From: an uncultured Candidatus Saccharibacteria bacterium
GTDB lineage: Bacteria; Patescibacteriota; Minisyncoccia; Minisyncoccales; CAZVLR01
Direction: 5' to 3'
Assembly (NCBI GenBank): GCA_964628095.1
Contig: CAZVLR010000001.1
Span: 56,777-120,776, forward strand
DNA length: 64,000 nt
The position numbers and the translations under genes are program-made. Of the stretch, positions 4,074-63,703 are shown one piece after another (position 1 is the stretch's first letter; every line of letters begins with the position of its first letter). The notes below the pieces were generated by a model, which saw nothing but the letters and a program-made list of their open reading frames with translations, made no database searches and had not been told where the DNA came from.

Positions 4074-5108
4074 TTATTTTTGTCTCTCGACTACCAAATC
4101 GGTAATTTCCTCCAATAGCCGATTATATTTATTTTGAGGCAAAAGCTTCAAGCTGGTTTTGGTTTTCTCAACGATTTTCCGGCTGTAATTCAGCGCCCTT
4201 TCTTTGGCATGGGTTTTCTTAATTAAATTAATGGCCCGCTCAAGATTTTCTTTGGTCATCTTTTTCCTCCTAATAATCTGCCAAAACTCTTTCTTGTCTT
4301 TGGGCAAAAACTCCTGATTGGCAAAATAGATTACAATATTACCGCCTTTTCGCTCTTCAATGTCTTTGCCGATTTTCTTGCCAAACTTCTTTTCCTCTCC
4401 GAAAATGTCCAAAATGTCGTCTCTCATTTGAAAAGCTAACCCTAAATTATAGCCGTAGCTCCTAACGGCTTTTAGCTGCCGCGCATTGGCATTACCGCAT
4501 AAGGCCCCGATTTCGCAGCAAGTTTGGAATAAAATGGCGGTTTTTTTGCCCACCATTTCAAAATAATCCTTTTCGGTAATATTACGGTAACGATGCTTTA
4601 AAATATACGGCTCTTCTTCCCGGCCGGCCTGCTCAAAAAGAATATCTAAAATTTCTCCGTCGCTGATTTTCTTAAGAACTTTGGCTAAAAGCTCGGATAC
4701 TTCTACGGGTTTTTTGGAACGATTGGCTTCCTGGAAAATGGCGGCCGCATAATCAATGCTGATACACTGGGCAATGGCCTTGCCGTATTTGGCCCAGGTT
4801 GTTTTCTGCCCACGCCTTAATACGCTATTATCTATTATATCATCGATTATCAAAGAATAGTTGTGCAAAATTTCAAGGGCAGCGGCCAAACCCAAAGCGC
4901 TCCTGATGCTGCCACCGAATAATTGGCTTGATAAAATGGTCAGCGCCGGCCTGATTCTTTTGCCGCCAGACAAAATCTGATAACGCGCCAAATCCTGGAA
5001 CTTTTTATCAACGTAAAGCGTGAGTATCTTTTCGATTTCTGGCTGAATCCCCTTGGAGGTTTTGCTGAAATATTGCTCTAGATTTTTTTTATTTTTTTGC
5101 CCAGACAT
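4074..5108 (-). CDS. polyprenyl diphosphate synthase (trans-isoprenyl diphosphate synthase)
   Basis: First DDxxD motif LIIDDIIDNSVLRRGQ. Second motif FQMRDDILDIFG. Length 344 aa. Confidence 0.85.
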   Translation of the reverse strand: MSGQKNKKNLEQYFSKTSKGIQPEIEKILTLYVDKKFQDLARYQILSGGKRIRPALTILSSQLFGGSIRSALGLAAALEILHNYSLIIDDIIDNSVLRRGQKTTWAKYGKAIAQCISIDYAAAIFQEANRSKKPVEVSELLAKVLKKISDGEILDILFEQAGREEEPYILKHRYRNITEKDYFEMVGKKTAILFQTCCEIGALCGNANARQLKAVRSYGYNLGLAFQMRDDILDIFGEEKKFGKKIGKDIEERKGGNIVIYFANQEFLPKDKKEFWQIIRRKKMTKENLERAINLIKKTHAKERALNYSRKIVEKTKTSLKLLPQNKYNRLLEEITDLVVERQK

Positions 5109-16181: not shown

Positions 16182-16473
16182 CTTTTACCCCCCCCAATAA
16201 CAAAAGGCTGTTGAAGCAATTTCAACAGCCTTTCTCTTTTAATGTTTGACTATTGTTAGAGCTTTTTATTCAGCGCCGCCCGGGTTTTGGGCCCCACCGT
16301 CCCCACCGGGCTTATTTTATTAGCCCTTTGGAATTTAATTACCGCCTTCCGGGTTAAAACGCCGTAATACCCGCCAATCTTTCCTGAGTAGAATTTCAAC
16401 TTTTTTAAGAGCTCTTGCAGTTTTTTAACCTCTGGACCCTGGTAGTCGGAATAAAGGTACTTGGTAAATTTAA
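16035..16473. repeat. copy A of a ~390-440 bp duplicated segment (3' end of giant gene + terminator + small-ORF region)
   Basis: Near-identical to 20034..20423, except for a 48-bp in-frame segment present only in copy A (about 16069-16116). Confidence 0.8.
16203..16233. terminator. bidirectional rho-independent terminator (13-bp perfect stem, 5-nt loop)
   Basis: AAAGGCTGTTGAA-gcaat-TTCAACAGCCTTT, T-rich on both sides. It sits between the small + ORF and the stop of the giant - gene. An identical copy is at 20152..20182. Confidence 0.65.
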
Positions 16474-19400: not shown

Positions 19401-19879
19401 CTTGTATAATTATCGTTTTGCCAAGCAAATGAAATGCTGGCAGCTGTTTCCGTCGCTTGATAAGTATTAGTTTTTCCATCGGTTAAAACAAACCCGGTTT
19501 TTAAAGTTCCGGCTGAAAGAATAACTTCTTCTCCGGTATAAGCCTGGTAAGTTATGTATCCTCCCGCTTCGCTTCCAGTATTCGTGAGAGATATTAAACT
19601 TCCTGTACCAGTGCCACTAACATATCTTCCCGCCCGGATATTTACCGTATCTCCTGCGGCTAAATTTGTGTTGGCCTTAGAAATACTGCACCAAGGCGTA
19701 GTAATAACTTGGGCCTGAGTCGTAGTGTAAGAATCGTTACAGGCGCCCCCCACGCTGTCAACGTCAACATAATAGGTTGTTGCTTGGGCAAAAGAAAAAC
19801 TTCCTAAAAATAGGATGGTTAAAAATAAAAAACAACTGAGAATAAAATACTTTCTTATTTTTCTTTTGGTATAAAACAT
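16256..19879 (-). CDS. giant secreted beta-helix protein with internal SGNH-hydrolase domain and C-terminal peptidoglycan-binding (PG_binding_1) domain
   Basis: 1207 aa. N-terminal signal peptide. Many parallel beta-helix repeats (NN.F..N......). SGNH blocks (FLAFGDSLTAG, ILEGTNDTDD, DGVHTNATG). C-terminal YQGPEVKKLQELLKKLKFYSGKIGGYYGVLTRKAVIKFQRANKISPVGTVGPKTRAAL. Confidence 0.8.
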   Translation of the reverse strand: MFYTKRKIRKYFILSCFLFLTILFLGSFSFAQATTYYVDVDSVGGACNDSYTTTQAQVITTPWCSISKANTNLAAGDTVNIRAGRYVSGTGTGSLISLTNTGSEAGGYITYQAYTGEEVILSAGTLKTGFVLTDGKTNTYQATETAASISFAWQNDNYTRYTSTSSIALVEASASTYYLDAANDLLYVHTADGTNPDDHAIEVNRANYVVNITSTKSYVKLKDLKLRNAVAYSVYLQGSNVVVENCEIYDNGITGVFVSGGSNSIINSHSHHSVENGIYFATGTNEVEKSILNNNERTGVYINSTESTFNILNNIFYKNGTQSSYLSMRSGLFVLQGNGINVYNNTFYQNYYGLKVHTSADDIDIKNNVFNEAVADGVYLAGTSNVIFQNNNLYQNSTDVSYIHQADGVAIDTTNMSLDPLFTNAAAYDFTLQKDSPMIDAGATIADVADDYAGNLRTDAGAGNAYDIGAYEYENTISRPIITTNGGNGVGKNFSSTESTISLSGTTSASTETIKVNNSVSGVTYTAGATSWSYSGNLASGSNVFEIAATDGSSNVSGTTTITVIKPVSKKFLAFGDSLTAGVASNNYEAYRVLLDGKLETYYATSTDMVDGGEGGETSASAALRLVNSILETAPEAVFILEGTNDTDDLGTDANEIVARDNLRIMVEYAKSMGVTPILGLVSPIVVGVNSRTQADYDSTDDLNDLLRTMALEEDVVIADHWNTFIQDGWDYDLDTSDESGLLLDGVHTNATGSGIMATNWYNAWVYGKKLHNNRSQVSTNYAMDFDEINTVEIEATSTDVAPVTVYADELGSSYSKVRAQSFSQLTLNFTDLTSSSNYDLFIDSSFSQKYSANANGDLSFSRTNTPSSTTTFELYVSIPPVLSAGSPTGSSFGTSQTLSVATDEAATCRYSTTASTTYALMTSTFSTTGSTLHSQPLTSLGPATHTFYVRCSDSLSNANTNDYIITFTVASQGSGGASGGASPSQTGTVTSYFNSQSFVSAQIEPNTLAGVYSFQIQTKDQNQVSQITNSASLPQALNIVPSLSANYQIVSGGQQITSFSKPISIYIHYQESDVLNFIESTLKIYYFNEQTKQWIPLDSQLNINTNEISAQVNHLTLFVVMGENKGQIVIPAPPFKFTKYLYSDYQGPEVKKLQELLKKLKFYSGKIGGYYGVLTRKAVIKFQRANKISPVGTVGPKTRAALNKKL

Positions 19880-20033: not shown

Positions 20034-20423
20034 CTTTTTTGGCTGGGTATCTGTATTAATATCTGCATATATTCTGTACATCCCCTTCTGGCACGCCCCC
20101 TGGAAACTTCTTCTTTCTCTCTTCTCTTAACTTTTACCCCCCCCAATAACAAAAGGCTGTTGAAGCAATTTCAACAGCCTTTCTCTTTTAATGTTTGACT
20201 ATTGTTAGAGCTTTTTATTCAGCGCCGCCCGGGTTTTGGGCCCCACCGTCCCCACCGGGCTTATTTTATTAGCCCTTTGGAATTTAATTACCGCCTTCCG
20301 GGTTAAAACGCCGTAATACCCGCCAATCTTTCCTGAGTAGAATTTCAACTTTTTTAAGAGCTCTTGCAGTTTTTTAACCTCTGGACCCTGGTAGTCGGAA
20401 TAAAGGTACTTGGTAAATTTAAA
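20034..20423. repeat. copy B of the duplicated segment; small-ORF remnant lacks start codon, RBS and promoter
   Basis: Identical run from the TTTTTTGGCTGGGTATCTG through the terminator hairpin and into the last ~75 codons of the 20205..23339 gene. Confidence 0.8.
20152..20182. terminator. second copy of the 13-bp-stem bidirectional terminator
   Basis: Same hairpin sequence as 16203..16233. Confidence 0.6.
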
Positions 20424-23339
20424 GGCGGACTCGGAAACTATGGCTGTTTTTTTCTCACCCATTAAAGCAAACAGGCTAAGATGATTTACACTGGCAGCAA
20501 CCTTGTTGTTAACCATATCTAAAAAGTTATTCAACAGGGCTTCCCATTTTTTATCTTGCTCATTGTACCAAAAAATCTTAAGCGTCTCTTCTTTGTAGTC
20601 TTGAACTTCTTGATCGGTATATTGAAAAGTAATCGTTAAGGGTTTTGAAAAAGAAGAAACTGCTATACCGTTGGAAGTTATCGAATAATCCGCCACCAGC
20701 TGCGAAACAATCTGAGTATTTGCACTGAGCATTGACGCATTGTTAGTTAACTGCTGAACCTGAGCAGAATCTTTAGGAACAATAGAAACTATAGCAGAAT
20801 TAATATTCTGAGCCGGAATCTCTATCTTGGTGAAACTTTGATTGGTAAAATTATATAAAGTGCTGGTTGGGCCATTAGAAGATACCGTGGTCGAACCATT
20901 GCCTGTTTCTGGCAAAACAATAGGCGGACTAAAGGTGGTTGCTGAGCCACCGCCACTGCAACCGCTGTTATTTTCAAAACTGGTAATGGTGGTAAAATCG
21001 CTCTCGAAAGCATCCCTATTTTTAGCTTTTACCCGAAAATTATAACTGGCTCCATCCCCGCAGCTAAGGCCCGAAGAAATCCAAGAAGTATCCGTTATCC
21101 AGCCAGAATTAGTGCCTTCGGTTATGTTTTCAACGTAATAATAGGTGCCGGCCGGGTTGGAATTGGCCGACCAAGAAACAGTGGCTCCGTGAGAGGCCGA
21201 GTTAGGGGTTACGGTGACGCTAGAGGGCGTATACACCCTCTCGGTAACCTCAAAGGTTTTGATGGAATATCCCCCGTTATAAGTAAAGGTAATTTGGCCG
21301 GAACCGTTGGAGAGATAATTTCCCAAACTAACACTGTCAACCAAAACCGTATAATAAGTATCTGCCCCAAGATCTCCAATCGTATGAACGGAAACAATAC
21401 TTGAGGTAGCACTGGTTTCAATCCATTTTTTATAATAAGTTGAAGAAGTGCTCCAATTTTTAACAGTAATATCCATCCAACTGCTATAATCGGCTAAGGG
21501 CCAGCCCGAGCTTGGAGCAATATTAAAATCAGCAACCGTGCTGGTAGCGCCAGTACCGGTGGCGCTGGTATAACGGAATTTACCATTAGAATATATTCTA
21601 AGAGGCGAAGAAACGTCAAAGTCGTTGGTGCCAGCAGTATACGGAGGCTGATATTCATAAGCGCCAATATCTGGGGTGCCGTAAATAGGGTTGCCGAGAT
21701 AATCAGCGGTTAAGCCCACATTGGTCCCTGCATCAATAGCCGGCGAAGTTGAAAGCAAGCTTAAAGAATTGGTCGAAGTGCTGGTATAATCGGGATCATC
21801 AATAATTGAATTGGTATCGTAGCCCAAAGCCTGCCAAGTCGCTACCAAACCGGCCTGGTGCCCGTCGGCATTTGCAAAAATATAGCCAGTATCTGTTTCT
21901 GAACCGTTCCAAAAAAGATTATAGTTGGAAACGTGATCAGTGCCAAGGTAAAAATCTACTGGGTGGGCTGAGGCATCCGTATATTCGATGGCATTATTTT
22001 TAATCCATGTTTCGTTGGTTGTCCAGCCGGCAACACTACTAGCCCCGTTAATAATTGAACTGCTGGTTCGATTCTGATAAAAAGAATTATTGTAAATAAT
22101 AGCGCTGTCTTGGCCCTTAGCCGCAATTACTACGCCCTGCTGATTAATAAAAATATTATTATAAATTCCGTATTGATGATTTAAATCAAGATTCAGCCCG
22201 GTTGAATCTTGGTCCCTAAGGCCCATGCCAATACCAAGACCGACAACCTTATTCCGATAAAAAGAAGTTGGGCAATCAAACTGGCCAGCATGATTGCTGT
22301 CATTTTCTGCGCCAAGATAACCGGTAAAAGTATTGTCGTAAACAAGAGCCGGAGAAGCCATATTCCAGGCGCCCAGAATAAGCGCTCCGCCGGCGGCAGA
22401 ATATCCGGTAACTGTAAAAGAATTATCGTAAACCGAAGCTGAAGTAACGGTTGGATAAGACGTACCATTAATTGTTATAATACCAGGCCCGTTATTATCT
22501 TTTGTAAAAATATTATCGTAAACTAAAATATTATCCCAATTAAGAGAATTGCATAAACCGCCGGCCCCGGAATTGGTCCAAATGTTATCGTGGATAATAA
22601 GATCAGAACCGGCCAAAACGGTTGTTCGGTAATTGTTATCTTCATATATTAATGGAGCCACAATATTATTAGAAGTATCGTTTATGTTTTTTATTTCCAA
22701 AGAGTTCAAGGCCGCCCTTATTTGAAAAATGCCATTATTGGCAGCTGTTTCAGCCCAATCATTTATCGTTAAATTATCCAATATAATGCTATAATTGGAA
22801 GAAGTCTGTGGAGAATAAAAAAATCTAGTTGTTGTAGCAAAGTCAGTTGAATTGTTTATGGTGCAGTCTTTAAAATTAATCGTGCCTCCGGATCCTGCTT
22901 CAAGGCTGGTAGTAAATACGTGAGTGATTGTCAGTCCGGCTACATCGGCATCAAATAAAATATCTTGAAAAGTAACGGTGTTTGAGCCGATCGAAGATAA
23001 ATCAACCGTAATAGCAATACTTAAACCATTTGAATTAATTTCTGCCCCGGCCCCATAAGCTATCCAAGTGCCGCCGTTTATAGTTACCAAAGAAGCCGGA
23101 CTAAAAGTGCCAGTAATATAAATAGTGTCACCATTGGTTGTTACTGCTCCGTCGGCATCCTCTAATTGATCAAAGGGGGCGGTAGCGCCAGAACACACTG
23201 AAGTGCTACCATCTCCTGGAGTGGCGCAAGTTGAATCAATATAAAATGTTGCCGCCTTGATTCTTTCAAAAGTAAAAAGACAGTTAAAAAATAATGCTAA
23301 TAAAAAAATAATTCTTAAATATTTAAATTTTAACCTCAT
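20205..23339 (-). CDS. giant secreted beta-helix protein with C-terminal peptidoglycan-binding domain (paralog of 16256..19879)
   Basis: 1044 aa. Signal peptide. Beta-helix repeats (NNIFINQ, NNSFYQN, YDN.FT). C-terminal ~75 aa are identical to the paralog. Confidence 0.8.
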   Translation of the reverse strand: MRLKFKYLRIIFLLALFFNCLFTFERIKAATFYIDSTCATPGDGSTSVCSGATAPFDQLEDADGAVTTNGDTIYITGTFSPASLVTINGGTWIAYGAGAEINSNGLSIAITVDLSSIGSNTVTFQDILFDADVAGLTITHVFTTSLEAGSGGTINFKDCTINNSTDFATTTRFFYSPQTSSNYSIILDNLTINDWAETAANNGIFQIRAALNSLEIKNINDTSNNIVAPLIYEDNNYRTTVLAGSDLIIHDNIWTNSGAGGLCNSLNWDNILVYDNIFTKDNNGPGIITINGTSYPTVTSASVYDNSFTVTGYSAAGGALILGAWNMASPALVYDNTFTGYLGAENDSNHAGQFDCPTSFYRNKVVGLGIGMGLRDQDSTGLNLDLNHQYGIYNNIFINQQGVVIAAKGQDSAIIYNNSFYQNRTSSSIINGASSVAGWTTNETWIKNNAIEYTDASAHPVDFYLGTDHVSNYNLFWNGSETDTGYIFANADGHQAGLVATWQALGYDTNSIIDDPDYTSTSTNSLSLLSTSPAIDAGTNVGLTADYLGNPIYGTPDIGAYEYQPPYTAGTNDFDVSSPLRIYSNGKFRYTSATGTGATSTVADFNIAPSSGWPLADYSSWMDITVKNWSTSSTYYKKWIETSATSSIVSVHTIGDLGADTYYTVLVDSVSLGNYLSNGSGQITFTYNGGYSIKTFEVTERVYTPSSVTVTPNSASHGATVSWSANSNPAGTYYYVENITEGTNSGWITDTSWISSGLSCGDGASYNFRVKAKNRDAFESDFTTITSFENNSGCSGGGSATTFSPPIVLPETGNGSTTVSSNGPTSTLYNFTNQSFTKIEIPAQNINSAIVSIVPKDSAQVQQLTNNASMLSANTQIVSQLVADYSITSNGIAVSSFSKPLTITFQYTDQEVQDYKEETLKIFWYNEQDKKWEALLNNFLDMVNNKVAASVNHLSLFALMGEKKTAIVSESAFKFTKYLYSDYQGPEVKKLQELLKKLKFYSGKIGGYYGVLTRKAVIKFQRANKISPVGTVGPKTRAALNKKL

Positions 23340-50161: not shown

Positions 50162-51301
50162 CTACTGCTCAATGCACAAAAGCTTGGACGGCTGATCGCA
50201 GGACTTTCCAACGGTAACCACAAAGCGCTTGGAAGGGTCTTCCCCAGCCACGCCCGAAGCCAAAGCGCCCAAACCAACCGCGGAAAGGCGCTTGCCTTGA
50301 GCCGTATAACATTCAGGATAGCTGGTAGTTTGGCCGACCGCAGGCGGATAACCCGGAATATTCCTGGACTCCGTGGTCCAATTTTGGCAAGTAGTAGTAA
50401 AACTGTATGATTCTGAAAGATTTAAGGGTACATAGCGCAAAGAAAGAGTGGTGCATTCCCGCTTGCTTTCCTTTGATATTCTTCCCAGCCAAAGATTGCT
50501 CATGTCGTCAAAATATTGGTTATTCAGTATTTTAAGATTAATAACATAAGAATTGGTTAATAGCTTTAAAAAAGAATTGGCGTCCTTTCCTAAAAGCCGA
50601 TGGCAGGTTTTTCCTTCAACAACCGAAGTTTCTGCTTTGGCATCGATAAAAATGCCTTCTAAATTAAGCCGGTCGGTGGCCAGCTTCTGGTCATCTCCCA
50701 AAAAAGCTTTCCAGGTGCCGCCATAATCCAGCTTTTCTGCTTCATCTTGGCATTTACGATCCGCCCCTTCCAAACCCTCTAAATTACCATTGTAACTGCC
50801 CTGGGTTACAAACACCTTTTTCAATTCTGGATAATCGCTGGGCAAATAGGGCCATTCGTTATTCTTTGATAAGGTATCACAAGAGGCAAACTTAGGCCCG
50901 GCAATCGTAAAATAATCGGTGGAATAACTTATCTTCTTTCCCTCCTGCCATGGATATTCATAAATGGCGATTTTGTAATCCTGATCGTAATCTTCGCCCG
51001 CATTCTCCCAAACAAAAACCGAGTAATCGAACTTTCTCTTGCTGGCTGGAATATCCGAGGCAATCACCTTAATTTCTTTCTGGTCCCGGCCCTTTACCAG
51101 CATAATACCAATATTCCCGATGTTTCTGGCGTCCCAGGTAATCTGATAGGTTTTTCCCGCCTGAAAAACCTCTCCCCCTTTGGGCGAAGTTATTTCCAGC
51201 ATTTGCTCTACAAAGTAACGGTTGTAAATCCAAAAACCCAAGAGCGCTAAAAAAATTGTGGCGCCAACGATAATTAAAATGATTTTTGTTTTCTTTTCCA
51301 T
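50162..51301 (-). CDS. membrane-anchored hypothetical protein
   Basis: N-terminal TM (IILIIVGATIFLALLGFWIY). Length 379 aa. Confidence 0.45.
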   Translation of the reverse strand: MEKKTKIILIIVGATIFLALLGFWIYNRYFVEQMLEITSPKGGEVFQAGKTYQITWDARNIGNIGIMLVKGRDQKEIKVIASDIPASKRKFDYSVFVWENAGEDYDQDYKIAIYEYPWQEGKKISYSTDYFTIAGPKFASCDTLSKNNEWPYLPSDYPELKKVFVTQGSYNGNLEGLEGADRKCQDEAEKLDYGGTWKAFLGDDQKLATDRLNLEGIFIDAKAETSVVEGKTCHRLLGKDANSFLKLLTNSYVINLKILNNQYFDDMSNLWLGRISKESKRECTTLSLRYVPLNLSESYSFTTTCQNWTTESRNIPGYPPAVGQTTSYPECYTAQGKRLSAVGLGALASGVAGEDPSKRFVVTVGKSCDQPSKLLCIEQ

Positions 51302-55188: not shown

Positions 55189-56451
55189 TTACTTTTCTAG
55201 CTCAATAATTACAATTTCTTCAGCCTCATCAAATTTTGAAGGCAACCGGCGAATTTTAACGGCTAAAGCTTTTCCATCCGGACTAAAGCCAAAAGTGGCT
55301 ACGGTTATGCCGCTCAGAGAATACTCTTGATAGCCTGGCACATTAAAATGACTTAACCTCTGCTGATTTGAGCCGTCGGCATCCATAATCCAAAAATCGG
55401 AACGCAAATTATCGCCTACAATATCGCCGTTCTTATCCCGATTTTGAGCCGTATCCTGGCTGGACATAAAAACGATTTTTTGGCCATCTGGTGAAAATTT
55501 AGCAAATTCATCCCATTCCAATGGCGTATTGGTTAATCTAGTAACTTTTTGCGTCTTTAAATCATAGAAAAATTCATCCAAGGCCGTTAACTTTGAATAG
55601 TAAGTTTTCTTATTTTTATCTTCCGGAAAGGCTGAATAGATTATTTTTGAATTGTCAGGTGAAAACCCATTAGTTTCATAAAACTGCATATTGCCCGGTT
55701 TAACCTCAATTATATTTGTAAGCTTCGGCTCTCCGTTTTCCACCATAAAATCAGCAACTTTCATTACCCAACTGCCCCAGGATTCCGGATCGTAGCTGAC
55801 TTTTTCCGCCCAGAGAATTTTTTTGCCGTCATAGGAAAATTTTGGATGAAGCACTCCCATGCGGGCAGCCACCTGGGTTATTTGCCAAAATTGTGATCCA
55901 TCGGCATTGGTTATCCAAAGATTGTTATTCAGCCCGCCGCCCGGAGTCCTGGCAAAGCGTTCTAGAATTTTTAATTTAGAAAATAATTCAGTATCCTCTG
56001 ATTGAAAAGCGATAAATTTACCGGAAGGATGCCAACTAGGATTGCCATTCATCCCTTGCGGTATATTGGATTTATTGCAAGTTAGGCATTTTTCATTCAT
56101 TCCATCTAGATTAATCGTCCAAATATCATAATTGCCGTCTTTCTCCTTACGATCAAAAGCAATGATATTATTCGGTCCCCATTCTACCCGTCCGCCTTTA
56201 TTAGTTAAGGTTCTGACATTTTTAACCTTATAAGTTGTTGAGTCGGGAAAATTTTTTCCGTTATTGGCGTTGCAATCAATCGAACAGCTTCCATTTTTTT
56301 GTTCCCATTTTTGGCAAATACTATCACCACATTTGGATTTTTGATAATTTTTTAGCAATATAAAGCCAATTACTAATAAAATTATAACTATCAAGACAAT
56401 AATTAAAAGTTTTTTGTTTGCCATATATTTAAAATTATTTTTCAAACTCAA
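55189..56451 (-). CDS. TM-anchored PD40/TolB-like beta-propeller protein with N-proximal 4-Cys motif (paralog family member 1)
   Basis: TM (LLIIVLIVIILLVIGFILL), followed by CGDSICQKWEQKNGSCSIDCNANNG. PD40-type repeats (GNPSWHPSGKFIAFQ, WITNADGSQFWQIT, FSPDG). Confidence 0.7.
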   Translation of the reverse strand: MSLKNNFKYMANKKLLIIVLIVIILLVIGFILLKNYQKSKCGDSICQKWEQKNGSCSIDCNANNGKNFPDSTTYKVKNVRTLTNKGGRVEWGPNNIIAFDRKEKDGNYDIWTINLDGMNEKCLTCNKSNIPQGMNGNPSWHPSGKFIAFQSEDTELFSKLKILERFARTPGGGLNNNLWITNADGSQFWQITQVAARMGVLHPKFSYDGKKILWAEKVSYDPESWGSWVMKVADFMVENGEPKLTNIIEVKPGNMQFYETNGFSPDNSKIIYSAFPEDKNKKTYYSKLTALDEFFYDLKTQKVTRLTNTPLEWDEFAKFSPDGQKIVFMSSQDTAQNRDKNGDIVGDNLRSDFWIMDADGSNQQRLSHFNVPGYQEYSLSGITVATFGFSPDGKALAVKIRRLPSKFDEAEEIVIIELEK

Positions 56452-58117
56452 TGATTACGATTTTCTCGTTTTGCCAAAATTCTCCAGGATATGTCCTGAG
56501 CTTGATAACAATCTGTGTGCCGTCAGGATTCCAGCTATGTTCTGCAACTACTGCGCCATCAGCTGTTAATTCCGGATAAACCGTTGAATCGGTGAGCGAA
56601 GAATTAAAATGAGTCAATCTTTTCTTGTTGGATCCGTCTGGATCCATTATCCATAAGTCCTGTTTTTGTTCTCCTGCCACAACATAGCCATCAGCATTTC
56701 TATTTTGCAGAATGTCCAAAGTTGAAGTCCAAATTATTTTGTTTCCATCTGGAGTAAATAGAGCGAATTCATCCCATTCATATTGTGTTCCGGTTAAGGA
56801 AGTCAGCTGCTGAGTATCCAAATCATATATAAATTCATCAAAGCTTTGGGCGGGCAAGTCTTCTTGAGAAGCCGAAAAAGTGATTTTATCATCATTCGGA
56901 GAAAAGCCATGTGTTTCATAAAGCCCCATGTCGCCGGGCTGTATTCCTTGAATATTGCTAATGGTTGGCACACCATCGACAACTGAAAAATCAGCTATTT
57001 TTATTTCCCACTGCCCCCAAAAACCCGAAAAGCAATTGGCGGGAAAGGTCATCCGCTCAGCCCAAATAAGCTTGGTTCCGTCGTGGGAAAATTCGGGATG
57101 CAGCACTCCTTTCCTGTCGGTCATAAAAGTTAGTTGCCAAAATTGGCTGCCGTCTGGATTAGTAATCCAAAGATCATTGTTAATGCCGCCACCGGGACTT
57201 TCAGCAAAGTTTTCACATACAAGATTCGATAAATCAGGATTTTCAGACTGGAAAACTATATAATTGCCAGAGGGATGCCAGCTGGGATTGCCATTCATAT
57301 GAGGATCGCCAGCCTCGGCGCAGGTTAGGCATTTTTTGCCGGAGCCGTCAGGATTCATTGTCCAGACATCATAGAATCCGTCGATTCCCATTCGGTCAAA
57401 GGCAATGATATTATTTTTGCCCCAATTTACTCGTCCGCCGCTTTCGGTTATAGTTGTAATACTTTTTATTTCATAACTGCCCGGTGGCGGTGGCGGATTT
57501 GGTATAAAAGCCAACTGCGAACCACCGCATAAAGGAGTAATCCTTATACCCCCTCTATTATCTTGGTCCAAAATATCACATTCCAAGCCCAAGTCTTCTG
57601 AACAATAACTAATGCCGTAATGGCAGGGACTCTCCTCTGTGCCCAGATTAATAGAAGTATATCCGTAAATATAGCGGTACTTTGAATTATTAACCGGGTC
57701 TTTGGGCGGACCGTCGGGGAACCAATCTTTTAGGATTTCTTTAAAGCTATTACCCCAGTCAGATCCCCCATTAATGCTGCCGTCTCCTACAGAGGCAGCT
57801 GCCAAACAATAAAGATTGTCTGCGTCTTCCAAACAGCTTTGGGTCGGATCGCAAAGAACATTCCAAAATGCATCTGGCCCGCCTTCCCCAAGGCAAGCTG
57901 CCGCTTCAGAACCGTTGGGGTTGGGATAATACCCGTAAAAAGTATAATGGGCGTTAAGCGCCAGCCTTAATTGGTTGGTTTCAGCCGCTCTCTTGGCGTC
58001 TCGGCCCTCCTTCTTGGCGCTATCAAGCACTATGAAAACAATCGTGGTAAGAAGCCCGATAATGCTAATTACTACTAGCATCTCAATTAAAGTAAACCCT
58101 TTTGATCTTTCATGCAT
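56435..58117 (-). CDS. type IV pilin-like N-terminus fused to PD40 beta-propeller domain (paralog family member 2)
   Basis: Class III signal MHERSKGFTLIEMLVVISIIGLLTTIVFIVL (G-FTLIEML). C-terminal domain is homologous to the neighbours (GNPSWHPSGNYIVFQSE, WITNPDGSQFWQLT). Confidence 0.7.
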   Translation of the reverse strand: MHERSKGFTLIEMLVVISIIGLLTTIVFIVLDSAKKEGRDAKRAAETNQLRLALNAHYTFYGYYPNPNGSEAAACLGEGGPDAFWNVLCDPTQSCLEDADNLYCLAAASVGDGSINGGSDWGNSFKEILKDWFPDGPPKDPVNNSKYRYIYGYTSINLGTEESPCHYGISYCSEDLGLECDILDQDNRGGIRITPLCGGSQLAFIPNPPPPPGSYEIKSITTITESGGRVNWGKNNIIAFDRMGIDGFYDVWTMNPDGSGKKCLTCAEAGDPHMNGNPSWHPSGNYIVFQSENPDLSNLVCENFAESPGGGINNDLWITNPDGSQFWQLTFMTDRKGVLHPEFSHDGTKLIWAERMTFPANCFSGFWGQWEIKIADFSVVDGVPTISNIQGIQPGDMGLYETHGFSPNDDKITFSASQEDLPAQSFDEFIYDLDTQQLTSLTGTQYEWDEFALFTPDGNKIIWTSTLDILQNRNADGYVVAGEQKQDLWIMDPDGSNKKRLTHFNSSLTDSTVYPELTADGAVVAEHSWNPDGTQIVIKLRTYPGEFWQNEKIVIIEFEK

Positions 58118-58156
58118 GGGTTAATATATTTTGTGCTTGCTTTTTATATCTCTATT

Positions 58157-59389
58157 TTAATCCTGGTGTTTTTCAAATTCAATAACAATAATTTTTTCGT
58201 TGTCATCAAAATTACCCGGCATTACCCGCGTTTTAACCGCCATCCTACTTCCGTCGGGACTCCAGCTGTAATCAGCCGGATTGGTGCCAGCCGGGTTGTA
58301 TTCCGAATAACCTGGCTCGTTAAAGTGTGTGAGCCGGGCTAAATTTTTTCCATCAGCATCCATAATCCAGAAATCAGATTTAAGCTTATTGCCTTCTATA
58401 ACTCCTTTGGCATTGCGAATTTGATTGATGCCCATGCTCGACATAAGAATTATTTTTTTCTGATTTGGCGTCAACATCGCAAATTCGTCCCATTCCTTGG
58501 GCGAATTGGTAAAATTGGTAAGCTTCTGGGTTTTTAAATTGTAACTGAACTCGTCAAAACTTTGCGACGCTTCATATCTTTTGGAAGCGGAAAAAAATAT
58601 TTCGGAATTGTCTTTGGAAAAACCGTTAACTTCATACAATCCCATATTTCCCGGCTGGATTTCTTGGATATTGGAAATTTTAGGTTCGCCATTGATAATA
58701 TTAAAATCGGCAATTTTAATAGACCATTGTCCCCAAAAATCATTAGTAAAGCTCTTGGAAAGCGCAATTCTTTCAGACCATAATAATTTTGTGCCGTCCG
58801 GTGAAAAATGTGGATGCAAAACACCCAACCGATTGGTCACATGTGTTAACTGCCAGAATTGGCTGCCGTCGCGATTAGTAACCCATAAATTATTATTAAT
58901 CCCTCCGCCGGGATGCGTCGCCCATTTTTCTAAAAAGGGCACGGATAAATTTGGATCTTCCGCTTGGAAAACAATATAATTGCCAGAAGAATGAATAGTT
59001 GGATTACCATTCATTTTCTGAGGGATCCCCGCTTTTTCACAAGTTAGGCATTTTTTATTGGAACCGTCGGGATTCATCGTCCAGATGTCATAAAACTTAT
59101 CATCTCCCTTGCTATCATAGGCAATATAATCGTTGGTCGGAGACCAATCAACCCTACCGCCTTTTTCGGCAATAGTTGTTATGGATTTTATTTTATAATC
59201 GCTTGCTGGGCCATTAGGAATATTTTTACAATCATTGGCGCAGGTTTCATTTTTTTGTTCCCATTTCTGGCAGATATTATCTCCGCATTTTGACTGGCGC
59301 CAGAAAAATAATAAAGCTAATGCAATAAATATTATAACAACAACTATTAAGATAATTTTTGTTATTTTTTTCATATTTTTTATTTCCAC
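58157..59389 (-). CDS. TM-anchored PD40 beta-propeller protein with CGDNICQKWE...C..DC motif (paralog family member 3)
   Basis: TM, then CGDNICQKWEQKNETCANDCKNIPNG, then PD40 repeats. Confidence 0.7.
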   Translation of the reverse strand: MEIKNMKKITKIILIVVVIIFIALALLFFWRQSKCGDNICQKWEQKNETCANDCKNIPNGPASDYKIKSITTIAEKGGRVDWSPTNDYIAYDSKGDDKFYDIWTMNPDGSNKKCLTCEKAGIPQKMNGNPTIHSSGNYIVFQAEDPNLSVPFLEKWATHPGGGINNNLWVTNRDGSQFWQLTHVTNRLGVLHPHFSPDGTKLLWSERIALSKSFTNDFWGQWSIKIADFNIINGEPKISNIQEIQPGNMGLYEVNGFSKDNSEIFFSASKRYEASQSFDEFSYNLKTQKLTNFTNSPKEWDEFAMLTPNQKKIILMSSMGINQIRNAKGVIEGNKLKSDFWIMDADGKNLARLTHFNEPGYSEYNPAGTNPADYSWSPDGSRMAVKTRVMPGNFDDNEKIIVIEFEKHQD

Positions 59390-61584
59390 TCAATAATTTT
59401 ATTTTTATCAACTGGACAGCCCAGAGCTTCAAATTCCTGGATAGTCTGGTAATGCACTATGGGCTGATACGGACCCATAACATTAGATTTATTTTCGCCA
59501 ATTAAGCTTTTGTTATACGTTGTCTGATACCAGGAACCGGTTTTCCAAGGAATGTTTTGGTCGGTCGGTGCATATTCTTTCATATAATTATCAGGATAAA
59601 CATTCATCCACCTCATAATCAATCCTTGCGTAGATTCTGGGCCAATGTTTTGCCAGGTGATGCCGCATTCTGGCCTGGCATTTGAAGGTTTCTCTTTTTG
59701 ACCATAAACAATAATATAATCATTATTATTGTCTCTTACCACATTTTCATCTAGTAAGCAGCCATAAACCAGCCCGTTATACATGTCATCTTGCCCTCCG
59801 CCAGTATGGCAGATTGACCAATAACGCGCTTGAGTTTTTTGAGTTGTGCTTTCTCCATTTCTGGTTTTTGGGGTTGTCGGAATCCGGCCGGTAATTGCAT
59901 AAACATGATTCGGAGTCACAGCAATACTACGGTGGAGATACATATCATACGGGCAGTCCGTGGCACTGTGCCCGATATTGCCCGGAGGAGCTGCATCAGG
60001 GCCCTTATTGGTTTGGCAGGCATATTGTTCTTGGAGCACTTTTTTAACTGTGTTTTCAGGCAACTTGCCAAAGGGTTGGGCTTTTTGGATTGCTGCGCCT
60101 TCGGCCCAAATAAGAAAAATATCAAACATTTTCCACCAACCCATAGATGAGCCAAGAATAGCTGGAACTTTTGCTAATGGTTTTTCCTCATAACCAGGAA
60201 CTATTCTTGCTAGAAGCTGGTCAATTTTAGAAGTATCTGGCTGAATCCAGAATTCTTCGCCAGTTTTTAATTTAAATAGCGCCTTAGGAAGCGAAACTCC
60301 ACCATAGGGATTTTTGCCGTTATCTGGAACATAATAACGCAACCATAAAATTGCTGGCGAAAGCATTCCATTGCCAATAGCGCCAGTGGATGAAAACGGC
60401 CCGCCAACACGCGTATTTCCCTGTGCTCTAAAATATTCGTTTTGCAATACTGGATTTAAATCGACCATGTTGCCTTGCTTTAAATCAAAATAAGCATGAT
60501 AGTGCCGATTAGTTGCGTTTCTGTTTTCGCCCACTCTGAATGGATTTATGTTTCCCGGGTCAGGATTGATATCTGCATCAATCAATGGCACTTCCATCTG
60601 GCCGCGGTTGCCGGCATAAGGAAATTGCGGATCAAAGGGCGGAGAAACTTGCAAGCTCATAAATCGGGCATGCGGAAAATCACCCTCAATAACCAATTGA
60701 GAATCATAAGGCGCGATATAGATTAATTTTTGGTAGGTTACATGAGTAGCGGCATTGTTCATGCGCAGATGTTGCCAATTATCTGAATCTGGCTCTTCTC
60801 GAGCAGGAATTCCATACCATTGTTCTTCTGCTGTAATTTCATCGGGCTTATATAATTTCCAGTGATTGGTTTTTGCATTATCAATATCTTCTCCCAGATA
60901 GCCGGCCGGAATTTCAGCAGGATTTTTGCCAGCCAGCCAGCCCCTGATATAATCTTCTAGTTTTTTTGAAAGTTCTTGGCCGGCTACTATTTGTTTTTTA
61001 TAGAATTCAGAATTTTTAGAATAAGGATCTTCTTTTTTACAAATATCTAAGATTTGATTAGCTGTTAAGCCCGGAAGGTTTACGGTAGAGATTCTGCCCG
61101 CATCTCTGCCTTCGGGCATTTTTGTTTTTAAGGCAACGCTTTTTTCCTGCTTGTTATAGCTGACTGATATTTTGCCCGAGCAAGCGCCGTGGCCGGTATT
61201 CCAAACAATAGCGCTGCCTTGGTTTGATCCTTGAATTGTGCCGCAGCCGGAAACTTCCCATTTGGGAGTGCCAAATTTTGTACATTCAGGATCGTCTTTA
61301 CCATTGGAACATTTAAAATTAACTATTTCATAGAGGCCGAAAACATCATTGGTGTTTTTAGGATTTATTGCCAGGCCTTCTTCTATTATGCCTTCGCAAT
61401 CCGCAGAGCAGGTGCCTTTGTTAAGCTCCCATCTTTGGCAGATATTATCTCCGCATTTTGACTGGCGCCATTTATTTGCAACAAATAATAAAGTTAAAAC
61501 AACAAATATTATTGCCAAAATAATTAAGACGTTTTTTATTGTTTTGTTCATATTTTTAATTTTGCTTGCCGCAGGCGCCGGCAA
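59380..61584 (-). CDS. TM-anchored large hypothetical protein sharing the CGDNICQRWE...C..DC motif (family member 4, non-propeller)
   Basis: TM (VLIILAIIFVVLTLLFV), then CGDNICQRWELNKGTCSADCEGII. The remaining ~650 aa show no motif I recognise. Confidence 0.6.
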   Translation of the reverse strand: MPAPAASKIKNMNKTIKNVLIILAIIFVVLTLLFVANKWRQSKCGDNICQRWELNKGTCSADCEGIIEEGLAINPKNTNDVFGLYEIVNFKCSNGKDDPECTKFGTPKWEVSGCGTIQGSNQGSAIVWNTGHGACSGKISVSYNKQEKSVALKTKMPEGRDAGRISTVNLPGLTANQILDICKKEDPYSKNSEFYKKQIVAGQELSKKLEDYIRGWLAGKNPAEIPAGYLGEDIDNAKTNHWKLYKPDEITAEEQWYGIPAREEPDSDNWQHLRMNNAATHVTYQKLIYIAPYDSQLVIEGDFPHARFMSLQVSPPFDPQFPYAGNRGQMEVPLIDADINPDPGNINPFRVGENRNATNRHYHAYFDLKQGNMVDLNPVLQNEYFRAQGNTRVGGPFSSTGAIGNGMLSPAILWLRYYVPDNGKNPYGGVSLPKALFKLKTGEEFWIQPDTSKIDQLLARIVPGYEEKPLAKVPAILGSSMGWWKMFDIFLIWAEGAAIQKAQPFGKLPENTVKKVLQEQYACQTNKGPDAAPPGNIGHSATDCPYDMYLHRSIAVTPNHVYAITGRIPTTPKTRNGESTTQKTQARYWSICHTGGGQDDMYNGLVYGCLLDENVVRDNNNDYIIVYGQKEKPSNARPECGITWQNIGPESTQGLIMRWMNVYPDNYMKEYAPTDQNIPWKTGSWYQTTYNKSLIGENKSNVMGPYQPIVHYQTIQEFEALGCPVDKNKIIEWK

Positions 61585-63703
61585 ATTTTATTTTATAAAT
61601 ATCTCCGTTGATATGCGGGCCACTGGTTTCTTCGCTGGAAACATGCGACATATAAATGGCTGCGCCGCTTGGATCCCAGCTTTGTTCTTCATTATGTTTG
61701 GCCAAGGTGTCATATTCTGGATAACCAGGAGTGTTGAAATGAGTGATTTGTACCAGATTGCTGCCATCCGGATTCATCAGCCAAATTTCATCATTGGTGG
61801 CTGGGTATTTGTCCATTATTTTGATGGCGATTTTTTTGCCATCAGGAGAATAAGCAATTTCTTCTTCCACTTGCGGGGTATTGGTAATTTGCTTCAAATT
61901 TCCTCCGTTTAAATCAGTGGTATAAATATCCGGCCAAAGTTCGGTGCCATCAGGACTTTTGGTCAAATCAGAATAGGAATAAATAAATCCTTTATTGTCA
62001 AAAGTAAATCCTTCGGGCTCAACCATAGTGAAATTAGCTGGAGGATTAACAGTTTTTATATCAGCGACAATCGGTTTGCCACTGGCGTCATATGTGATTT
62101 TTGTATATTTGGCGCGCCAGATACATAGTTCTTCGCCCTTGCGCAAGGAAAAACTTTCTACACCCCACCAACAACCCGGATGCTTATCTACTCCTGGCTT
62201 GCCATTGGGGTATTTTTCCATCATAAACTCTTCTCCCCAAGTAATCATAGTGCCGTCAAAGGAATAATAAGGTTCAATCATCCCCCAATTGTCCGGATAA
62301 TCAGTAATCTGCCAAAAAGCCGAGCCATCAGCTTTGGCGATCCAAACATTATAATTTCTGCCAATGCCTGGTCGGGCTGTGGTGCCTATGCCTTTTCTGG
62401 GATATTTGGCTGATTCAGCGCCAAAGATAATATATTTGCCATCTGGCGACCAAGCTGATTGGCCGCGATGGCGGGTATTGGCCAAAGCCGCTTTGCCACA
62501 AGTTAAGCATTGAATATTGGAAAAATCTGCATTCATGGTAAAAACTTCGAATTGATCGTTAACTTCATCGGTAAAAGTTATCTTTCCCTGGGGCGAAGTC
62601 CTGGGGAACGAGCCATTAACTGCGGTTTTTTCCACGCTAACAACTTTGCAGGGGTTCTCATTCCCCACCGGTTTTTCGGCTAAAATCCCCGCCTCGTAAC
62701 CCTCAACCTCCTGGGGTAAAGCTGCAAAAGCGCCGTAGATATCGTTTAATTCGTACCAGCACATTTTGGTGTCTTGAGAACATTCCAAGGGCTCGCCCAA
62801 AATGCCAGCGTTCCTTCTTTTGGTAGCATCGCCTTCGTATCCTGGCCAAGTAATGGTTGTTTTATAGGTTACTAATATTTCTTTGCCAATGTAAGAATCC
62901 TTTTTAGAATAATCGTCAAAAGATAAGCCGATTAATCCGGATTCCGGCCCATCTTTGGCGTATTTTACAAAATAGGAGCCGATTTTTTGGTACTGAGCGC
63001 TAGAATCAAAAACCGAGAGCTCGCCCGAAGACCAGGTAATTACGTTGTCGCCCGCCTCAATATTTAATTCGCCCCAAGTGCCGTCCCAAAACATGGGTTC
63101 GATAGTGGACGTGCCCACCAGTTTTTTGCATAAAATAGTCTCGTCTTCCTGGATTAATTTTACGCTTTTACCAATGTCTTCCAAATTAAGCGCCACCTGC
63201 GGAGAACCAATATCGGGATGATATGTAAAAAGGGCAGGCCAGCCAAAAGCCACCATATAGGCGCCCTGTTTTTCAACCGAACCCGAACAGGAGACTTGCT
63301 GGGCTGTTTGAGCCAGAACCGTACCAACGCTTGCCAAGCCAATGCTTGAAGTCTGATTTGTCTGTTTTAACCCTTGAAGTAGTTTTAATTTTATTAATTG
63401 CTTGATCCTTTCGGGGATTACTCTTTTTGAAGAATTTAAGCTGATAATCTGCTCTTTAATGCCCTGGTATTGCTTGAGTTTTTCAATAAGAGCTTGTCGC
63501 CTTTGCTGCATTAGCTCAATCGCAGCATTCTTTCTGCTTTCCAACATTTTCTTTCGAAAATTAGAAAGAAGATAAAGAAACAAAGCTCCTAGAAGAATAA
63601 CAATAAGCACAATAATTAAGGTTTTTTGCCAGGTTTTTAAACTAAATCCTTTTTTAACTTCACCCGAAGTTACGGGTGTTTGAAGATTATTTTCTTGAGG
63701 CAT
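61556..63703 (-). CDS. TM-anchored coiled-coil protein with C-terminal PD40 beta-propeller (family member 5)
   Basis: TM (LIIVLIVILLGALFLYLL), then coiled-coil. PD40 repeats (WSPDGKYIIFGAE, WIAKADGSAFWQIT, YSPDGKKIAIK, WLMNPDGSN). Confidence 0.65.
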   Translation of the reverse strand: MPQENNLQTPVTSGEVKKGFSLKTWQKTLIIVLIVILLGALFLYLLSNFRKKMLESRKNAAIELMQQRRQALIEKLKQYQGIKEQIISLNSSKRVIPERIKQLIKLKLLQGLKQTNQTSSIGLASVGTVLAQTAQQVSCSGSVEKQGAYMVAFGWPALFTYHPDIGSPQVALNLEDIGKSVKLIQEDETILCKKLVGTSTIEPMFWDGTWGELNIEAGDNVITWSSGELSVFDSSAQYQKIGSYFVKYAKDGPESGLIGLSFDDYSKKDSYIGKEILVTYKTTITWPGYEGDATKRRNAGILGEPLECSQDTKMCWYELNDIYGAFAALPQEVEGYEAGILAEKPVGNENPCKVVSVEKTAVNGSFPRTSPQGKITFTDEVNDQFEVFTMNADFSNIQCLTCGKAALANTRHRGQSAWSPDGKYIIFGAESAKYPRKGIGTTARPGIGRNYNVWIAKADGSAFWQITDYPDNWGMIEPYYSFDGTMITWGEEFMMEKYPNGKPGVDKHPGCWWGVESFSLRKGEELCIWRAKYTKITYDASGKPIVADIKTVNPPANFTMVEPEGFTFDNKGFIYSYSDLTKSPDGTELWPDIYTTDLNGGNLKQITNTPQVEEEIAYSPDGKKIAIKIMDKYPATNDEIWLMNPDGSNLVQITHFNTPGYPEYDTLAKHNEEQSWDPSGAAIYMSHVSSEETSGPHINGDIYKIKFAGACGKQN

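What the first reader, a model, noticed from the sequence alone, without database searches (positions are those of the whole stretch)
56435..58117. Type IV pilin class III signal peptide fused to a TolB-like beta-propeller
The N-terminus MHERSKG-FTLIEMLVVISIIGLLTTIVF matches the prepilin peptidase cleavage and N-methylation consensus (G|FTLIE). The other ~500 aa form a beta-propeller paralogous to the neighbouring TM-anchored proteins, not a pilin globular domain. This would put a propeller on a pilus-like stalk, or use pilin-type processing for surface display.
Basis: partly seen in the sequence, partly recalled or inferred. Interest (0 to 1): 0.55.

Follow-up and report, generated by a model that had tools for sequence, protein, structure and literature searches.

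The report
Type IV pilin carrying a beta-propeller
This gene from an uncultivated ultra-small groundwater bacterium encodes a complete pilus subunit with a six-bladed propeller domain attached by a proline linker, a "modular pilin" of a kind already described, most likely used to display a binding domain on a pilus.

Summary
The ORF exists: window 56435-58117, minus strand, 560 aa. It starts with a canonical class III (prepilin) signal, MHERSKG|FTLIE, which scores above the curated thresholds of Pfam N_methyl and TIGR02532. It ends in a confidently modelled six-bladed PD40/TolB-like propeller that is 48-53% identical to the neighbouring TM-anchored paralogues.

Residues 8-~204 form a full pilin module, homologous over about 80% of its length to stand-alone 150-220 aa CPR pilins. 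A PNPPPPPG linker follows, and the propeller covers only aa ~214-560.

This is a bimodular "modular pilin" in the sense of Raynaud et al. 2021, whose catalogue already lists eight N_methyl + IPR011659 proteins (IPR011659 = PD40 by my recollection). A propeller-bearing minor pilin (PilX2) needed for efficient host binding has been reported in Saccharibacteria.

A second locus carries the same pilin module (about 480 nt virtually identical) fused to a GHL15 glycoside-hydrolase-like domain. The module therefore behaves as a carrier.

No pilus machinery lies in the window or in about 36 kb of extra flanks. That is uninformative, because orphan pilin genes occur in other CPR contigs too.

Verdict: a real feature and a new member of a known kind. 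Pilus-tip display is inferred, not shown.

The parts
58097..58117 (-). Leader peptide MHERSKG (aa 1-7) of the class III signal; predicted prepilin-peptidase cleavage after Gly7
   Evidence: Sequence; Pfam N_methyl and TIGR02532 above curated cutoffs. Cleavage itself is inferred.
58034..58096 (-). Hydrophobic alpha1-N segment FTLIEMLVVISIIGLLTTIVF (aa 8-28), with Phe+1 and Glu+5
   Evidence: In an alignment of 86 pilins, K6 G7 F8 T9 L10 E12 V16 I17 I19 I20 are invariant. AF2 models a helix at aa 10-61 with pLDDT above 90.
57506..58096 (-). Complete pilin module of the mature protein (aa 8-204): long alpha1 helix, a Cys-rich insertion (aa ~72-118), the conserved PxDPxNxxxYxY region and a terminal Cys197; eight Cys in all
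   Evidence: Homology to stand-alone 150-220 aa CPR pilins over up to 80-82% of the 215-aa query. A family profile hits GspG, PilE and EpsG chains in the PDB. The AF2 head is only partly confident and the Foldseek search was not significant.
57571..58057 (-). Tract of ~480 nt (gene nt 61-546) that is identical, apart from 1-2 positions, to a second pilin gene at another locus (L009 4266-6344)
   Evidence: Three-way nucleotide alignment. Contigs L001, L002 and L008 end inside it.
57479..57505 (-). Proline-rich linker IPNPPPPPG (aa 205-213), homologous to IPNGPASD in the 410-aa paralogue
   Evidence: low pLDDT in the model.
56438..57478 (-). Six-bladed PD40 / TolB-like (Pfam Tricorn_N, PF26549) beta-propeller, aa 214-560; blade motifs start at aa 227, 277, 339, 403, 452 and 527
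   Evidence: PD40 hit; PF26549 precomputed for the identical protein P0001 and named Tricorn_N; AF2 pLDDT above 90; Foldseek best match TolB at E 1e-11; blade motifs.
55189..56451 (-). Downstream paralogue (420 aa): TM anchor + CGDxIC...C..DC stalk motif + the same propeller; its start overlaps the pilin gene's end by 17 nt
   Evidence: 48% identity.
58157..59389 (-). Upstream paralogue (410 aa): TM anchor + Cys stalk motif + propeller
   Evidence: 53% identity.
59380..61584 (-). 734-aa TM-anchored protein in the same co-directional array, with the same Cys stalk motif and an unknown C-terminal domain
   Evidence: no Pfam or NCBIfam hit.
61556..63703 (-). 715-aa TM-anchored paralogue: a long N-terminal region followed by the propeller
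   Evidence: 28% identity; Tricorn_N annotation.

Best explanation
The gene encodes a bimodular ('modular') type IV pilin of a Parcubacteria-type CPR/Patescibacteria bacterium. It consists of a 7-residue leader and G|FTLIE class III signal, a complete small GspG-like pilin module (aa 8-~204), a proline linker, and a six-bladed PD40/TolB-like propeller (aa 214-560). The propeller was recruited from the adjacent family of TM-anchored surface propellers. The fusion replaced the paralogues' 'TM helix + Cys-rich stalk' with a pilin module. Proposed mechanism, all steps inferred: the precursor inserts in the membrane; the prepilin peptidase PilD removes MHERSKG and N-methylates Phe8; the type IV pilus machinery then extracts the protein through its alpha1 helix into a filament. 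A ~38 kDa cargo cannot be carried by every subunit of the filament body, so the protein would be a low-abundance minor pilin, most likely at the tip. There it would display the propeller away from the cell as a ligand-binding module, for a host or partner surface or for a polymeric substrate. The TM-anchored paralogues would present the same domain at the cell surface. Shown here: the motif, the two-module anatomy, the paralogy, the propeller fold, and reuse of the same pilin module with another cargo.
For: The class III signal scores above curated cutoffs and is unique in the window. The pilin module is homologous to whole stand-alone pilins, and its family profile matches solved GspG, PilE and EpsG chains beyond the hydrophobic helix. 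The propeller is confidently modelled and TolB-like, and the query carries the listed family-wide nearly invariant residues. The homology junction with the 410-aa paralogue lies exactly at IPN...YKIKSITTI. An independent SPAdes contig from another sample (L010) reads through the whole fused gene at 99.6% nt identity, with 10 synonymous and 2 non-synonymous codon differences. The fusion is therefore reproducible, and the small sample of differences is consistent with purifying selection. A second locus (L009, on a 78-kb contig) carries the same pilin module fused to a GHL15 glycoside-hydrolase-like domain. That is the carrier-plus-cargo logic of modular pilins. Literature: modular pilins number more than 1,200 proteins in 264 architectures, many from CPR, and are modelled as tip-located (PMC8179133). 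The N_methyl-IPR011659 architecture is listed 4+2+1+1 times. T4P components including PilD are widespread in CPR (PMC6744442). The propeller-bearing pilin PilX2 of TM7x is needed for efficient host binding (PMC11623550). The lineage is CPR: DnaB is up to 78% identical to Nealsonbacteria, Wildermuthbacteria and Minisyncoccales MAGs.
Against: No PilB, PilC, PilD, PilM or other pilin lies in the 64 kb window, in ~20 kb beyond its two ends, or in the 16 kb of locus B. The pilin head fold is only partly confident (mean pLDDT 68.7; low at aa 72-118 and 181-204), and the Foldseek search returned pilins only at non-significant E-values. The propeller family is 40-45% identical across distant phyla and is fused to esterases and M4 peptidases elsewhere. 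That pattern fits a conserved biochemical role better than a fast-evolving host adhesin. The pilin module is a repeat that demonstrably breaks and mis-joins short-read assemblies. Processing, polymerisation, tip location and the ligand are all untested.
Confidence: 0.75

Rival explanations
1. Surface display without a true pilus. The class III signal is processed by PilD, but the protein stays at the envelope as a membrane-proximal oligomer or short pseudopilus. This would resemble the Sulfolobus 'bindosome', in which substrate-binding proteins carry class III signal peptides, or a competence/T2SS-like pseudopilus. The propeller would then work close to the cell surface.
For: There is a precedent for class III signal peptides on binding proteins that are not pilus fibres (PMC3047682). 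The N-terminal helix resembles GspG and ComG pseudopilins. The paralogues are ordinary surface-anchored proteins. The gene is an orphan, away from any pilus locus.
Against: The protein has a full pilin head that is homologous to stand-alone pilins, not merely a signal peptide. CPR bacteria are reported to build T4P, with components widespread in the group. A TM anchor already achieves near-surface display in the paralogues, so swapping it for a pilin module suggests a different location.
Confidence: 0.12
2. The cargo is catalytic or feeds substrate to an enzyme, rather than being an adhesin. The pilus, or the pilin anchor, would deliver an enzyme-like propeller to extracellular polymers or to the host envelope. 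This would parallel the GHL15 hydrolase-like cargo on the sister pilin.
For: The sister locus fuses the same carrier to a GHL15 glycoside-hydrolase-like domain. The propeller family has many conserved polar residues (R229, H281, Q290, N314, H340, E401, E450, N505, D526) and a CLTC motif. In other organisms it is fused to esterase/PHB-depolymerase and M4 peptidase domains. Oligogalacturonate lyase is among the structural matches.
Against: No catalytic family is matched by sequence. The best structural matches are the non-enzymatic TolB and the gating propellers of S9 peptidases. Many of the conserved residues belong to the structural PD40 repeat motif.
Confidence: 0.25
3. Assembly artefact. The pilin module and the propeller belong to different genes and were joined by the assembler across the ~480-nt repeat shared by two loci.
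For: Contigs L001, L002 and L008 end inside the repeat. L007 joins the locus A upstream region to the locus B downstream region. L094 is an evident chimera that continues into unrelated DNA.
Against: The same join is found in the 170-kb NCBI contig (P0001) and in an independent SPAdes contig from another sample with a different SNP haplotype (L010). The A-specific sequence begins at nt 547, still inside the pilin module, whose last strand and Cys197 are present in A-specific form. It then continues without a frame break into the propeller. The gene sits in a tandem array of propeller paralogues, and the downstream paralogue's start overlaps the end of this gene.
Confidence: 0.05
4. Vestigial signal. 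The N-terminus acts only as an uncleaved TM anchor, and the pilin-like features are a relic.
For: No peptidase or machinery has been observed in the sequence available.
Against: Every position that is invariant in the 86-pilin alignment is intact in the query (K6 G7 F8 T9 L10 E12 and others). The pilin module is kept virtually identical at two loci. The differences between strains are mostly synonymous.
Confidence: 0.04

Closest known systems
Modular type IV pilins, prototype PilB (vWA module) and PilC (lectin module) of Streptococcus sanguinis (Raynaud et al. 2021, PMC8179133)
   Same: Canonical class III signal, a small pilin module, a short linker and a bulky C-terminal domain that is not specific to pilus biology. 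The organism is a monoderm. The cargo is predicted to be presented at the pilus tip. The published catalogue already contains IPR012902-IPR011659 (N_methyl + PD40) architectures in 8 proteins.
   Different: The cargo here is a six-bladed PD40/Tricorn_N propeller, not vWA or lectin. The gene is an orphan in a surface-protein array rather than part of a pil locus. Nothing has been tested experimentally.
PilX2 of Nanosynbacter lyticus TM7x (Saccharibacteria; PMC11623550)
   Same: A CPR bacterium. A pilin-like protein with a C-terminal beta-propeller. It is a candidate tip adhesin, and its deletion halves host binding.
   Different: The PilX2 propeller is heptabladed and of RCC1 type, and PilX2 lacks a predicted PilD signal. 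The protein here has a six-bladed PD40 propeller and a textbook G|FTLIE signal. No sequence comparison was possible.
PilY1/PilC tip adhesins of Pseudomonas and Neisseria
   Same: A beta-propeller is presented at a type IV pilus tip.
   Different: PilY1 is not a pilin and docks on minor pilins through its own propeller (IPR008707). Here the propeller is covalently fused to a pilin and belongs to another propeller family. No PilY1 family appeared in the Pfam scan.
TolB (Tol-Pal system)
   Same: Six-bladed PD40 propeller fold; TolB is the best PDB match (E 1e-11, TM ~0.5).
   Different: TIGR02800 scores 51.8 bits against a cutoff of 343. There is no TolB N-terminal domain and no Tol-Pal genes in the window, and the organism belongs to a group reported to lack an outer membrane. 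This is a fold relative only.
Sulfolobus bindosome substrate-binding proteins with class III signal peptides (PMC3047682)
   Same: A non-pilin functional domain is placed behind a class III signal peptide for surface localisation.
   Different: Those proteins are archaeal and lack a pilin head module. They depend on a dedicated Bas system and are not shown to form fibres.

Membership tests
Type IV pilin (class III signal peptide; Pfam PF07963 / TIGR02532) | Short hydrophilic leader ending in Gly(-1), then Phe/Met(+1) and Glu(+5) | tested here: met
   MHERSKG|FTLIE. G7, F8 and E12 are invariant among 86 aligned pilins.
Type IV pilin (class III signal peptide; Pfam PF07963 / TIGR02532) | HMM score above the curated threshold | tested here: met
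   PF07963 scores 31.5 bits against 21.2. TIGR02532 scores 30 bits against 16.3.
Type IV pilin (class III signal peptide; Pfam PF07963 / TIGR02532) | About 20 hydrophobic residues continuing into a ~50-residue alpha1 helix | tested here: met
   AF2 models a helix at aa 10-61 with pLDDT 91-97 for aa 11-60. The same helix (aa 10-60) appears in the full-length model.
Type IV pilin (class III signal peptide; Pfam PF07963 / TIGR02532) | Globular head (alpha-beta roll with antiparallel sheet and C-terminal Cys/disulfide) | tested here: inconclusive
   Sequence homology to whole stand-alone pilins runs through aa ~177-204, including PxDPxN...YxY and Cys197. The profile hits truncated GspG and EpsG structures. 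However, the model shows only one hairpin, with low-confidence loops, and the Foldseek matches to pilins have E above 3.
Type IV pilin (class III signal peptide; Pfam PF07963 / TIGR02532) | Prepilin peptidase and assembly machinery (PilD, PilB, PilC, PilM/N/O) encoded in the genome | tested here: inconclusive
   None lies in the 64 kb window, in ~20 kb beyond its ends, or in 16 kb of locus B. The rest of the genome could not be reached. These components are widespread in CPR according to PMC6744442. Homologous orphan pilin genes occur next to housekeeping genes in other CPR contigs.
Type IV pilin (class III signal peptide; Pfam PF07963 / TIGR02532) | Cleavage, N-methylation and polymerisation into a filament | not testable with these tools
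   Requires biochemistry or imaging.
Modular pilin (sensu Raynaud et al. 2021) | N-terminal pilin module joined by a short linker to a further domain not specific to pilus biology | tested here: met
   Pilin module aa 8-204, linker IPNPPPPPG, PD40 propeller aa 214-560. The definition is and the architecture is listed. That IPR011659 is the PD40 entry rests on my own knowledge.
TolB (TIGR02800, Tol-Pal) | Equivalog HMM score above the cutoff, and the N-terminal TolA-binding domain | tested here: not met
   51.8 bits against a cutoff of 343.15. The N-terminus is a pilin.
TolB (TIGR02800, Tol-Pal) | Six-bladed PD40 propeller fold | tested here: met
   Foldseek best matches are TolB chains at E 1e-11. 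Six blade motifs are present.
PilY1/PilC tip adhesin | PilY1-type propeller domain (IPR008707 / Pfam Neisseria_PilC) in a non-pilin protein | tested here: not met
   No such family appeared in the Pfam scan at E <= 0.01. The protein carries its own pilin module.
PilX2-like propeller pilin of Saccharibacteria | Sequence or structural homology to TM7x PilX2 (RCC1-type heptabladed propeller) | not tested
The published description indicates a different propeller class.

The most novel reading that the evidence does not exclude
The near-identical pilin module shared by two loci is a recombination cassette. Gene conversion or crossover within the ~480-nt tract would exchange whole cargo domains (PD40 propeller versus GHL15 hydrolase) and leaders between loci. 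Populations of this episymbiont would then vary what their pili display, a domain-scale analogue of pilE/pilS antigenic variation. The hybrid contigs (A leader + GHL15 in L007; B leader + propeller start in L094) would be real recombinants rather than chimeras.
Probability: 0.12. Interest if true: 0.65.

Novelty: new member of a known kind. Interest (0 to 1): 0.3.

Why it matters
CPR/Patescibacteria are thought to depend on type IV pili to find and hold their hosts, yet the molecules at the pilus tip are known for only one cultivated Saccharibacterium. This locus gives a clean example from a Parcubacteria-type lineage. A canonical, presumably PilD-processed pilin carries a conserved PD40 propeller whose TM-anchored siblings sit next door. 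A sister pilin with the same carrier carries a putative glycoside hydrolase. This offers concrete candidates for what such cells present at a distance from their surface, either binding or polymer processing. It also gives a natural comparison of the same domain on a pilin anchor and on a TM anchor. It does not reveal a new principle, because modular pilins, including N_methyl-IPR011659 architectures, are already catalogued.

Full report
**Observation**

The ORF lies at window 56435-58117 on the minus strand and encodes 560 aa from an ATG start. It begins MHERSKG|FTLIEMLVVISIIGLLTTIVF. That is a 7-residue basic leader ending in Gly, then Phe+1, Glu+5 and 21 hydrophobic residues. Pfam N_methyl scores 31.5 bits against a gathering score of 21.2. 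TIGR02532 scores 30 bits against 16.3. A six-frame regex scan finds no other such motif in the 64 kb window. The C-terminal part hits PD40. It is 48%, 53% and 28% identical to the TM-anchored neighbours at 55189-56451, 58157-59389 and 61556-63703.

A search with aa 1-215 alone returned about 100 proteins that all carry N_methyl. Most are stand-alone CPR pilins of 130-220 aa, and several align over 70-82% of the query at 29-36% identity.

The alignment shows the usual pilin landmarks beyond the helix. These are R39-D40-x-x-R43, P65, the P138-x-D140-P141 and Y151/Y153 block, and a terminal Cys197. A profile of 86 such pilins matches solved GspG, PilE, EpsG and geopilin chains, including N-terminally truncated GspG/EpsG head domains.

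Residues 8-~204 are therefore a complete pilin module, with a Cys-rich insertion at aa ~72-118 and eight Cys in all. The linker IPNPPPPPG (aa 205-213) follows. The propeller covers only aa 214-560.

The homology with the 410-aa paralogue starts at the linker (IPNGPASDYKIKSITTI). The fusion therefore replaced the paralogues' 'TM helix + CGDxICQxWEQxxxxCxxDC stalk' with a pilin module.

**Structure**

| Model | Input | Result |
|---|---|---|
| Pilin module | 86-sequence alignment A4 | Helix aa 10-61 (pLDDT above 90), one hairpin at aa 152-170 at moderate confidence; poorly defined at aa 72-118 and 181-204; mean pLDDT 68.7 |
| Full length | Alignment A5 | aa 216-559 mostly above 90 pLDDT |

The Foldseek search of the pilin module against the PDB listed CofA, PilE, EpsG and PilJ only at non-significant E-values. 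The head fold therefore rests on sequence homology.

For the full-length model, the best PDB matches are TolB chains (E ~1e-11, TM ~0.5). S9-peptidase propellers and oligogalacturonate lyase follow. Six PD40-like blade motifs start at aa 227, 277, 339, 403, 452 and 527.

The protein is not TolB. TIGR02800 scores 51.8 bits against a cutoff of 343, and the TolB N-terminal domain is absent.

The propeller family (Pfam PF26549, Tricorn_N) is extracytoplasmic and widespread. It keeps 40-45% identity across distant phyla, and in other organisms it is fused to esterase/PHB-depolymerase or M4-peptidase domains.

**Is the fusion real?**

The identical 560-aa protein is on a 170-kb NCBI contig (P0001). 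An independent SPAdes contig from another sample (L010) reads through the upstream paralogue and the entire fused gene at 99.6% nt identity. It differs at 10 synonymous and 2 non-synonymous codons.

The pilin module is nevertheless a repeat. A second locus, L009, lies on a 78-kb contig. PGK, DHH and methyltransferase genes lie upstream, and RNase H, MurJ and LepA genes downstream. It encodes a 692-aa pilin with this make-up:
- The leader is MRKKRKS|FTLIEIL.
- Gene nt 61-546 are identical to the window gene apart from 1-2 positions.
- The first 60 nt, and everything after aa 183, differ from the window gene.
- The cargo is a GHL15 glycoside-hydrolase-like domain (PF14885, 77.5 bits; PDB 9nhf, E 1.3e-7).

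Several metagenome contigs end inside this tract (L001, L002, L008). L007 joins the locus A upstream region to the locus B downstream region. L094 runs from the B leader through the module into the start of the propeller and then into unrelated DNA, so it is a clear chimera.

I read the long contigs as the parental state: locus A carries the propeller and locus B carries GHL15. I read the short hybrids as probable mis-assemblies. The sharply bounded identity tract is best explained by gene conversion. Some consensus blurring by the assemblers cannot be excluded.

**Context and lineage**

The rest of the window holds housekeeping genes and many surface proteins. The housekeeping genes include mraZ/mraW, PBP2, Mur ligases, DnaB, CysRS, a ClpB-like ATPase and ribosomal protein L10. 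No PilB, PilC, PilD or PilM is present.

About 10 kb beyond each end of the window, and the 16 kb of locus B, also lack them.

The samples are groundwater metagenomes. DnaB is up to 78% identical to Candidatus Nealsonbacteria, Wildermuthbacteria and Minisyncoccales MAGs. The organism is therefore a Parcubacteria-type CPR bacterium.

In CPR, pilins, PilB/T, PilC, PilM/N/O and PilD are reported as widespread (PMC6744442). Homologous stand-alone pilins in other CPR contigs are likewise orphan genes among housekeeping genes. Absence of machinery near this gene therefore says little.

**Mechanism**

The best-supported reading is a modular minor pilin. The steps are PilD cleavage after Gly7 and N-methylation of Phe8, extraction by the T4P machinery through alpha1, incorporation at low abundance, and display of the propeller. 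Incorporation is most likely at the tip, because a ~38-kDa cargo on every subunit would not pack. All of these steps are inferred by analogy with S. sanguinis PilB (PMC8179133) and TM7x PilX2 (PMC11623550).

What the propeller binds or does is unknown. Its strong conservation, its enzyme partners elsewhere and the hydrolase-like cargo of the sister pilin keep a substrate-processing role alive alongside adhesion.

The rivals, in my order of likelihood:
- enzymatic rather than adhesive cargo;
- bindosome-like or pseudopilus surface display (PMC3047682);
- assembly chimera;
- vestigial signal.

**Comparison and novelty**

Raynaud et al. searched InterPro and found more than 1,200 modular pilins in 264 architectures, many of them from CPR. 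Their Dataset S1 lists four architectures containing IPR011659:

| Architecture | Proteins |
|---|---|
| IPR012902-IPR011659 | 4 |
| IPR012902-IPR022346-IPR011659 | 2 |
| IPR012902-IPR002469-IPR011659 | 1 |
| IPR012902-IPR011659-IPR011659 | 1 |

That IPR011659 is the PD40 entry rests on my own knowledge; a literature search for the accession returned nothing.

In the search with the full protein, no other listed close relative combined N_methyl with this propeller. This particular fusion therefore looks like a local, recent invention.

The finding is a new member of a known kind. It is sound and tidy but not surprising to a pilus specialist. The two-locus carrier module with its conversion tract, and the pilin-GHL15 fusion, are the more unusual side observations.

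Noticed in passing
L009 4266-6344 (second locus, 78-kb ENA groundwater contig): A 692-aa pilin with the same pilin module but a GHL15 glycoside-hydrolase-like cargo (PF14885, 77.5 bits) behind a CGNGVC...C.FDC motif. It is a putative enzyme on a pilin. Its leader, MRKKRKS|FTLIE, has Ser instead of the near-invariant Gly at -1.
   Followed up: partly
window 57571-58057 versus L009 ~4326-4811: About 480 nt are identical apart from 1-2 positions between the two pilin genes, while the first 60 nt and the 3' parts diverge. This is a sharply bounded tract suggesting gene conversion. Strain variants (L010, L001, L007) carry about 9 SNPs in the locus A copy.
   Followed up: partly
L007 (6455 nt), L094 (2702 nt), and the ends of L001, L002 and L008: Short metagenome contigs break or mis-join inside the pilin-module repeat. 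L007 joins the locus A upstream region to the locus B downstream region. L094 continues into unrelated DNA after nt 1269. This is a warning that proteins such as P0003 and P0124 in public catalogues may be chimeras.
   Followed up: yes
window 55189-63703: Five co-directional, overlapping or closely spaced surface-protein genes. The TM-anchored members share a small Cys motif (KCGDxICQxWEQxxxxCxxDC) directly after the TM helix, which looks like a common stalk module.
   Followed up: partly
window 59380-61584 (-): A 734-aa TM-anchored protein within the propeller array, with no Pfam or NCBIfam match even at E = 1. Its domain is unknown.
   Followed up: no
window 16256-19879 (-) and 20205-23339 (-): Two very large proteins (1207 and 1044 aa) that end in a PG_binding_1 domain. 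The first also has a right-handed beta-helix and a GDSL lipase/acylhydrolase domain. They may be cell-wall-attached or cell-wall-targeting enzymes.
   Followed up: no
window 50162-51301 (-): A 379-aa TM-anchored protein combining a Kre9/KNH-like Ig domain with DUF1554, a combination usually noted in other lineages.
   Followed up: no
P0002, P0004, P0005: The closest non-identical relatives of the propeller include proteins of 728-781 aa. The one whose sequence was read (P0002) has two tandem copies of this propeller behind a lipoprotein-like signal. One hit is annotated from an ANME-1 archaeon, so the family crosses domains.
   Followed up: no
L091 10001-11074 and L093: In other CPR contigs, homologous stand-alone pilins sit as orphan pairs between PGK and enolase, with a T2SSE ATPase about 5 kb away. 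The PGK neighbourhood recurs at locus B here.
   Followed up: no
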